A DNA stretch of 64,000 bases from contig OZ076409.1 of the NCBI GenBank assembly GCA_964187785.1, positions 26,538,001-26,602,000 on the forward strand, written 5' to 3'. This stretch comes from Amphiscolops sp. MND2022. Its lineage: Eukaryota. Below are positions 48,066 through 48,466 of the stretch, piece after piece. A model generated the notes under the pieces. That model was given only the letters and a program-made list of their open reading frames with translations, searched no databases and was not told where the DNA came from. Every line of letters begins with the position of its first letter. The first letter of the stretch is position 1. Both the position numbers and the translations under genes were made by a program.

Positions 48066-48400
48066 TGTAACATAGCTGAAACATTCCTATGTTGAGGACA
48101 AAAGAACTGATTGAAAGAACTCTTAAATATTTGACCTTAAAACTATTTTACCTATGACAGAACTTTAACCTTTTAACTATTTAATCAGCATCTATCTTTG
48201 AACAAATAACTATAATAATATTTATGAAGTAAAAAACATCAGTGCTGACAATAACTAGAGAATTGCATGGTTGTGTTTTCAATAAGAAAAGAGAGAACTA
48301 ATCTGAGGATTGTGATCCATGTTCCGAAGACTTGACTGCTCTCCATTCCTGCATCCAGCCGCCAGCCATAAATACTCATCTTAAAAGTAGAGATATAAGT
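48066..48400 (+). repeat. 5' LTR (335 bp)
   Basis: TGTAACATAG...AGATATAAGT; no differences from 62231-62565 seen by eye. Confidence 0.95.
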
Positions 48401-48466
48401 TGGTGACAGGAGTGGGATTCGAACCCACGCATCCGAAGATACTGCGATATAAGTTGGTGACAGGAG
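48401..48466 (+). promoter_or_regulatory. Duplicated tRNA-Leu primer-binding site with an extended tRNA complement
   Basis: 48401-48446 is the reverse complement of a tRNA-Leu-type 3' half (CGCAGT-ATCTTCGGAT-GCGTGGGTTCGAATCCCACTCCTGTCA-CCA). It is followed by GATATAAGT and a second TGGTGACAGGAG at 48455-48466. Confidence 0.9.

What the first reader, a model, noticed from the sequence alone, without database searches (positions are those of the whole stretch)
48392..48466. Possible fossil of tRNA-primer read-through: duplicated PBS with 46 nt of tRNA-Leu cDNA
Seen: the LTR end GATATAAGT is followed by TGGTGACAGGAGTGGGATTCGAACCCACGCATCCGAAGATACTGC, then GATATAAGT again, then TGGTGACAGGAG (54-bp period). 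The first block complements CCA, the acceptor 3' strand, the T-arm, a long variable arm and the anticodon-stem 3' strand of a Leu-type tRNA. Established: plus-strand strong-stop synthesis normally halts at m1A58 after ~18 nt. Inference: RT read through position 58 up to the anticodon loop, then transferred through G(AT) microhomology onto the LTR end. The usual PBS would be the 12-nt second copy, which matches the relic at 34518.
Basis: partly seen in the sequence, partly recalled or inferred. Interest (0 to 1): 0.7.

Follow-up and report, generated by a model that had tools for sequence, protein, structure and literature searches.

The report
Retrotransposon that over-copied its primer tRNA
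A young, otherwise intact jumping gene carries a 47-base copy of the tRNA that primes its replication, most likely because its reverse transcriptase ran past the normal stop, halted at the next modified base and rejoined just upstream: a known laboratory by-product caught in a genome.

Summary
Confirmed, with small corrections. A young Ty3/Gypsy element (identical 335-bp LTRs 48066-48400 and 62231-62565, 5-bp TSD, open Gag-Pol) has a 21-bp repeat (U5 end + 12-nt PBS) at 54-bp period. Bases 48401-48447 are the exact complement of the 3' 47 nt of a mature tRNA-Leu(UAG): 44 of 44 gene bases match a real tRNA gene (L001), plus CCA. The match passes A58 and ends at position 38, just before G37, a reverse-transcription stop in human Leu tRNAs. 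The overlap with the LTR end is GA, not GAT. One contig of a sister copy skips exactly these 54 bases, so the single 12-nt PBS is the ordinary form. Best reading (0.72): plus-strand strong-stop DNA overshot m1A58, stopped at m1G37 and realigned 9 nt upstream of the PBS, giving a duplication and losing nothing. Rivals that give the same letters: a 3' tRNA half as primer (0.13), target-primed insertion (0.05), repair copying of a tRNA gene (0.04), artefact (0.03). The product is known in vitro, and this scan noted similar overshoot fossils in two other genomes. What differs here is rescue inside an intact element. Raw reads of this copy were not available. Interest 0.4.

The parts
48061..48065 (+). 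Left target-site duplication AACTG (4-bp AACT reading also possible if the LTR starts at 48065)
48066..48400 (+). 5' LTR, 335 bp, starts TGTAACA, ends GATATAAGT (no terminal CA)
   Evidence: identical to the 3' LTR
48392..48412 (+). Repeat copy 1: last 9 nt of U5 + 12-nt PBS
48401..48447 (+). Complement of the 3' 47 nt of mature tRNA-Leu: CCA (48401-48403), acceptor 3' strand, T arm (T48419 opposite A58), variable arm, anticodon-stem 3' strand, to position 38
48446..48447 (+). GA overlap: tRNA positions 39-38 and first two letters of the repeated U5 end
48446..48466 (+). Repeat copy 2: U5 end + the family's ordinary 12-nt PBS (48455-48466), followed by the leader
   Evidence: a sister-copy contig runs from the LTR directly into this copy
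49187..55954 (+). Single open Gag-Pol frame, 2255 aa: zinc knuckle, RT, RNase H, integrase, C-terminal OARD1/TARG1-like macrodomain
59547..61892 (+). Second open frame, F-type envelope-like (hydrophobic N-terminus, RHRR site, C-terminal hydrophobic stretch seen by eye)
   Evidence: no Pfam hit at cut-off
62222..62230 (+). Polypurine tract GAGAGGAAG
62231..62565 (+). 3' LTR, identical to the 5' LTR, without the 54-bp addition
62566..62570 (+). Right target-site duplication AACTG
34518..34530 (+). 13-nt tRNA-Leu PBS of a relic from a related family (comparison only)

Best explanation
An error of plus-strand transfer during the element's own replication. (1) Full-length tRNA-Leu primed at the 12-nt PBS [inferred from the PBS]. 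(2) Plus-strand strong-stop DNA copied the primer past A58, either unmethylated or read through correctly, and halted at position 38/39 in front of G37, presumed m1G [end point shown; modifications inferred from human Leu tRNAs]. (3) The 35-nt overshoot could not pair with the leader. Its 3' end (..GA) realigned on the minus strand 9 nt upstream of the PBS, either by end-to-end clamping to a minus strand that ended there or by slippage after normal PBS pairing [inferred; the two routes give the same letters]. (4) Both strands were completed and the DNA was integrated with a normal TSD [shown]. The result is LTR - 47-nt tRNA copy - repeated U5 end - normal PBS, with nothing deleted. It arose in the round that made this copy or in a recent ancestor.
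For: [quoted passage not shown] The end point lies 1 nt (UAG gene) or 2 nt (AAG-type gene, table 7, by eye) before G37; 2 of the 67 possible end points beyond 18 nt (range) fall there. Human Leu tRNAs carry m1A58 and m1G37, and m1G37 gives significant RT stops (PMC5066629, passages). HIV-1 RT makes a minor plus-strand product ending at modified position 37 (PMC13191261, passages). RT can insert the correct T opposite m1A (PMC4787781, passages), so T48419 is compatible. RTs including Tf1 RT join 3' ends through 2 complementary bases if one is C or G (PMC3035444, abstract and passages). A sister copy has the single PBS. The 3' LTR lacks the 54 bases and the LTRs are identical, so the copy is young and was primed next to U5.
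Against: The 2-nt overlap is weak: 43 of 67 end points would find such an overlap in the last 30 nt of U5. No misincorporation marks A58, so nothing in the letters proves an RNA template; CCA is supplied by the PBS anyway. Host tRNA modifications were not measured, and L001 is not shown to be from the host (no shared flank with the window). The literature holds that products running to position 37 are dead ends. Clamping in vitro needs a gap-free adjacent template, and Tf1 RT showed it mainly in Mn2+. The sister-copy evidence is one contig in one metagenome run laid at 80% likeness; 8 of 87 pieces were shown and none spans the insert.
Confidence: 0.72

Rival explanations
1. The primer was a 3' tRNA half cut in the anticodon loop. 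RT read past A58, ran off the 5' end of the fragment at about position 38 and jumped end-to-end to the minus strand.
For: Same letters. A template end is the natural substrate for end-to-end clamping. Anticodon-loop cleavage of tRNAs is common (own knowledge).
Against: Needs the cut to fall at 37/38 exactly, where m1G37 predicts the stop without a further assumption. For HTLV-1 the full-length tRNA, not a fragment, was found to be the primer (PMC11251516, passages).
Confidence: 0.13
2. Target-primed insertion after integration. A nick in the PBS gave a 3' end complementary to the mature tRNA, a non-LTR RT copied the tRNA to G37, and the 21-bp repeat is a target-site duplication (like tailless tRNA retropseudogenes; recalled, no paper read).
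For: A 21-bp direct repeat around 33 unique bases, 5' truncation with a 1-2 nt overlap and pairing of the RNA 3' end with the target are all TPRT-like. The window holds non-LTR RTs.
Against: Identical LTRs leave little time. A nick must fall within about 10 bases of a 14.5-kb element, at the one site where the element's own RT makes this cDNA in every cycle.
Confidence: 0.05
3. DNA-level templated insertion. During repair a 3' end in the PBS jumped to a tRNA-Leu gene through the 9 shared bases, copied 35 nt and returned through GA.
For: tRNA-Leu genes are multicopy and tandem (L001 holds three copies or parts; summed depth 580 over the block in X1). No RNA-specific mark is present.
Against: A DNA template gives no reason to stop at 38-39 (2 of 67 end points). 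It also requires a distant template and a break exactly at the PBS.
Confidence: 0.04
4. Assembly artefact: a chimeric join between the element and a tRNA gene.
For: No read or contig that spans the insert was seen (8 of 87 pieces shown), and no genome is held.
Against: It needs an exit through 9 shared bases and a return through 2, 9 nt upstream. Assemblers do not join on such overlaps, and the end point is biologically meaningful.
Confidence: 0.03

Closest known systems
Over-extended plus-strand strong-stop DNA of HIV-1 (product P5, ending at ms2t6A37 of tRNA-Lys3; PMC13191261 passages, PMC8599865 passages and Discussion)
   Same: LTR-adjacent copy of the primer that passes A58 and ends at the modified base 3' of the anticodon.
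   Different: There a minor in vitro product described as unable to complete transfer. Here tRNA-Leu/G37, a Ty3/Gypsy element with a 12-nt PBS, and the product was rescued and integrated.
Primer over-extension sequence of lentiviruses and spumaviruses (PMC13191261, PMC8599865)
   Same: Genome complementary to the primer beyond the normal PBS, so that over-extended plus strands can pair.
   Different: POS is conserved and reaches only to positions 55-54. This is 29 nt beyond position 59, is not in a sister copy, and comes with a duplicated U5 end and PBS.
Ty1/Ty3 plus-strand transfer (PMC5371799 passages)
   Same: Short PBS; the tRNA-copy-bearing plus strand is normally a dead end.
   Different: In yeast the stop is after 12 nt and the tRNA sequence is not inherited. 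Here tRNA sequence was inherited.
RT clamp activity (PMC3035444)
   Same: Joining of two 3' ends through 2 complementary bases that include G or C.
   Different: Shown in vitro with an adjacent gap-free template; here only inferred, and a 2-nt overlap is common by chance.
Helenus TRIMs with tRNA-derived LTR sequence (PMC10886601 passages)
   Same: tRNA sequence inside an LTR retroelement.
   Different: Helenus has it in both LTRs as a Pol III promoter, is non-autonomous and is ascribed to SINE insertion. Here a 3' half only, outside the LTR, no A box.
env-carrying Ty3/gypsy elements of metazoans (PMC13524379 passages)
   Same: gag-pol plus F-type env-like frame, tRNA-Leu PBS, near-identical LTRs.
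   Different: This PBS 12-mer was not found in the 7 supplements; no tree was built; Pol ends in a macrodomain, a word absent from that paper's main text.

Membership tests
Over-extended plus-strand strong-stop cDNA | Begins at the first base after U5, in plus-strand orientation, complementary to the mature tRNA 3' end | tested here: met
Over-extended plus-strand strong-stop cDNA | Copies the element's own primer beyond A58 | tested here: met
   47 nt against 18; same 12-mer as the ordinary PBS
Over-extended plus-strand strong-stop cDNA | Ends next to position 37 | tested here: met
   last copied position 38 (UAG gene) or 39 (AAG-type)
Over-extended plus-strand strong-stop cDNA | Host tRNA-Leu carries m1A58 and m1G37; template was RNA | not testable with these tools
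   No RNA holder listed; inferred from human tRNAs; no mismatch at A58
Ty3/Gypsy LTR retrotransposon | Order RT - RNase H - integrase in Pol, with LTRs, PBS, PPT and TSD | tested here: met
Ty3/Gypsy LTR retrotransposon | TG...CA LTR termini | tested here: not met
   U5 ends TAAGT in both LTRs and in the sister contig; a usual trait, not required for the group (own knowledge)
Errantivirus-like (env-carrying) Ty3/gypsy | Third frame encoding an F-type fusion protein | tested here: inconclusive
   Atlas features 0.95-0.96 to Baculo_F/Fusion_gly clusters but recognition value 1460, below the 2300 guide; no Pfam hit; no fold run
Errantivirus-like (env-carrying) Ty3/gypsy | Pol groups with errantivirus clades | not tested
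   no tree built; homologs carried no informative names
Primer over-extension sequence | Conserved across the family, directly behind a single PBS | tested here: not met
   sister copy lacks it
Helenus / TRIMp3 | tRNA-like promoter in both LTRs of a non-coding mini element | tested here: not met
   3' LTR lacks it; element is 14.5 kb and coding
tRNA gene or tRNA-SINE insertion | Whole tRNA body with A and B boxes, or SINE tail | tested here: not met
   ARAGORN finds 0 genes in the window; Rfam gives only a T-arm fragment, 48412-48429 minus strand

The most novel reading that the evidence does not exclude
The accident is heritable and has been passed on. The 47-nt site pairs fully with both normal (18-nt) and over-extended plus strands, whereas the ordinary 12-nt PBS leaves a 6-nt mismatch (TGGGAT against CAAAAC). 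It would then be a primer over-extension sequence caught at birth, a direct route by which short retrotransposon PBSs lengthen and lentivirus-type POS elements arise. A sub-lineage of copies at different sites sharing this same 54-bp junction would show it.
Probability: 0.12. Interest if true: 0.7.

Novelty: new variant of a known kind. Interest (0 to 1): 0.4.

Why it matters
Over-extension of plus-strand DNA to position 37 is described as a minor, dead-end product seen in vitro. This copy indicates that it forms in vivo in a retrotransposon and can be rescued and integrated without loss. Such junctions record, in germline DNA, where the host's tRNA modifications stop an RT, and show one way tRNA sequence enters retroelements. 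As a single accident its weight is modest. A family-wide count of end points, or proof that the long PBS is inherited, would make the origin of PBS length and POS testable.

Tried and rejected
No whole genome is held, so copies could not be counted. The record behind L001 is not searchable. The 21-nt LTR-PBS junction gave 0 matches in viral contigs and genome contigs; a 30-nt tRNA-copy pattern gave 0 in viral contigs; the search for related loci with Gag-Pol gave 23 pattern hits, none confirmed. No RNA holder listed. Rfam on the window fragment gave only weak partial hits. Cluster members carried no accession or name, so sister PBS regions could not be read. Literature: one search returned 0 papers; listings showed no title on an integrated element with such an overshoot; (macrodomain + gypsy) returned 0. 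The library lacks most older subscription papers, where 2-LTR circle junctions with primer-tRNA copies were reported (Colicelli and Goff 1986, recalled, not seen). One search fetched an unrelated paper through a wrong id. Rejected: fixed family trait; GAT microhomology; microhomology as strong evidence; an LTR lengthened by priming at the second PBS (3' LTR lacks the 54 bases).

Full report
Setting. The finding lies at the 5' LTR end of a 14.5-kb element. The two LTRs are identical over 336 aligned bases (48065-48400 and 62230-62565). With the LTR starting at TG (48066) the flanks give a 5-bp TSD, AACTG; a 4-bp reading is also possible. One open frame of 2255 aa (49187-55954) has a zinc knuckle, RT, RNase H and integrase in Ty3/Gypsy order. 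A second frame looks like an F-type envelope protein by language-model features only. The family is multicopy: of the 25 cluster members I held (15 of 25 and 10 of 10 listed), 12 align to the 451-aa RT-RNase H region over 260 aa or more, at 93-100% identity.

Observation. 48392-48412 is repeated exactly at 48446-48466. A 42-nt pattern from between the repeats found 1 locus in the metagenome collection, L001. It is a complete tRNA-Leu(TAG) gene by ARAGORN and Rfam, in a tandem array with two further, diverged copies or parts. With CCA added, its complement equals 48401-48447 for 47 of 47 nt. The copy passes A58 (T at 48419, no mismatch), the whole variable arm and the anticodon-stem 3' strand, and ends at position 38; the next tRNA base is G37 and does not match. 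The last two letters, GA, are also the first two of the repeated LTR end. Run X1 holds another Leu gene type whose loose end departs at 48446 (table 7; read by eye as anticodon AAG with C38). With that primer the copy would be 46 nt and the overlap 1 nt. L001 shares no flank with the window, so it is not shown to be a host gene, though 44 of 44 bases including the variable arm suggest the same or a close species.

Is it a family trait? Only 1 run was listed (X1, marine metagenome, 0.19 of the words). Laid at 80% likeness, 84 records covered 28 of 30 bins. One 267-nt contig (depth 9.7) joins 48391 to 48446, skipping exactly 54 bases, with 69 letters on the short side and 2 other letters in the rest. 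It is a sister copy with LTR end, single 12-nt PBS and leader. This is one contig in one run; 8 of 87 pieces were shown and none spans the insert, so the duplicated form has no read support here. The relic at 34518 has the same PBS but is another family (Gag 36% identical).

Mechanism. [quoted passage not shown] In HIV-1 the main product stops at m1A58; minor ones stop at 55, 54 and at modified position 37, and only those ending at 58, 55 or 54 are said to be usable (PMC13191261, passages; PMC8599865, passages and Discussion). Human Leu tRNAs carry m1A58 and m1G37, and m1G37 gives RT stops (PMC5066629, passages). RT sometimes inserts the correct T at m1A (PMC4787781, passages). An end at 38-39 is thus the predicted next stop; 2 of 67 possible end points lie there (range). 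The overshoot cannot pair with the leader (even bases 13-18 mismatch). The junction shows that its 3' end resumed 9 nt upstream of the PBS. RTs, including that of Tf1, can join ends through two complementary bases (PMC3035444, abstract and passages; PMC8363836, passages). This last step is inference: 43 of 67 end points would find a 2-nt overlap in the last 30 nt of U5, and slippage after ordinary PBS pairing gives the same product. The 3' LTR lacks the 54 bases, so the round that made this copy was primed next to U5.

Rivals. A 3' tRNA half as primer, target-primed insertion at a nicked PBS (the 21-bp repeat read as a TSD) and repair copying from a tRNA gene all give the same letters. The first cannot be separated by sequence. 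The other two need a rare event at the one site where the element's own RT makes this cDNA in each cycle, in a copy too young to have LTR differences; the DNA route also does not explain the end point. A misassembly would need joins on 9 and 2 bases.

Comparison and novelty. It works like the HIV-1 position-37 product. It is not a primer over-extension sequence (not conserved), a Helenus element (PMC10886601, passages) or a tRNA gene. In Ty1/Ty3 the tRNA copy is not inherited (PMC5371799, passages). My searches (listings only beyond the papers named) showed no report of such a junction in an intact integrated element, but older virology papers are largely missing from the library, and primer-tRNA copies at circle junctions are recalled from them. 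This scan noted overshoot fossils in two other genomes: a solo LTR with 51 nt of tRNA-Pro (e1-7808317) and a dead gypsy copy with 55 nt of tRNA-Leu and a 2.4-kb loss, said to be one of dozens (e1-7804496) (unchecked notes). The class therefore recurs. Particular to this case are the end at G37 and rescue by duplication, which leaves the element whole and gives it a 47-nt site (computed duplex -99.6 against -21.7 kcal/mol for 12 nt, tRNA unfolding ignored). Whether that form is handed on is open (0.12).

Verdict. Real; first reading supported; new variant of a known kind; interest 0.4.

Noticed in passing
window 55499-55951 (+): Gag-Pol ends in an OARD1/TARG1-like macrodomain (PDB 4j5r, E 2e-21; Pfam Macro below cut-off). 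A paper search for macrodomain + gypsy retrotransposon gave 0.
   Followed up: partly
window 59547-61892 (+): Open F-type envelope-like frame, 3.6 kb behind pol; the C+T-rich spacer 55955-59546 has several 100-170 aa frames, five tested without Pfam hits.
   Followed up: partly
window 48392-48400 and 62557-62570: The U5 end is TAAGT with no CA and no terminal inverted repeat, and the TSD follows the GT directly. The sister contig has the same end. Non-canonical or unprocessed right end.
   Followed up: partly
window 62571-64000 (-): The element sits in the last codons of a Penelope-like frame (GIY-YIG-type motif seen by eye). That frame has an in-frame, 99% identical 216-bp triplication at 63221-63952: recent slippage or an assembly error.
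   Followed up: no
window 34340-35060 (+): Relic of a related LTR family: LTR-like end in CA, 13-nt tRNA-Leu PBS at 34518, Gag start at 34698, cut after about 120 aa.
   Followed up: partly
window 35105-35215 (-): tRNA-like SINE head with a B box, next to a 58-bp tandem array at 35199-35620; a weaker tRNA-like piece at 33995-34075.
   Followed up: no
window 7650-11590: About 2.3-kb tandem duplication, 95-100% identical.
   Followed up: no
L001 1-642: Tandem tRNA-Leu array with about 310-bp period; the called gene has a G-G mismatch in the anticodon stem and its neighbours are diverged.
   Followed up: no
window 48562-48620: Short direct repeat in the leader; the sister contig lacks 27 bases at 48581.
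   Followed up: no
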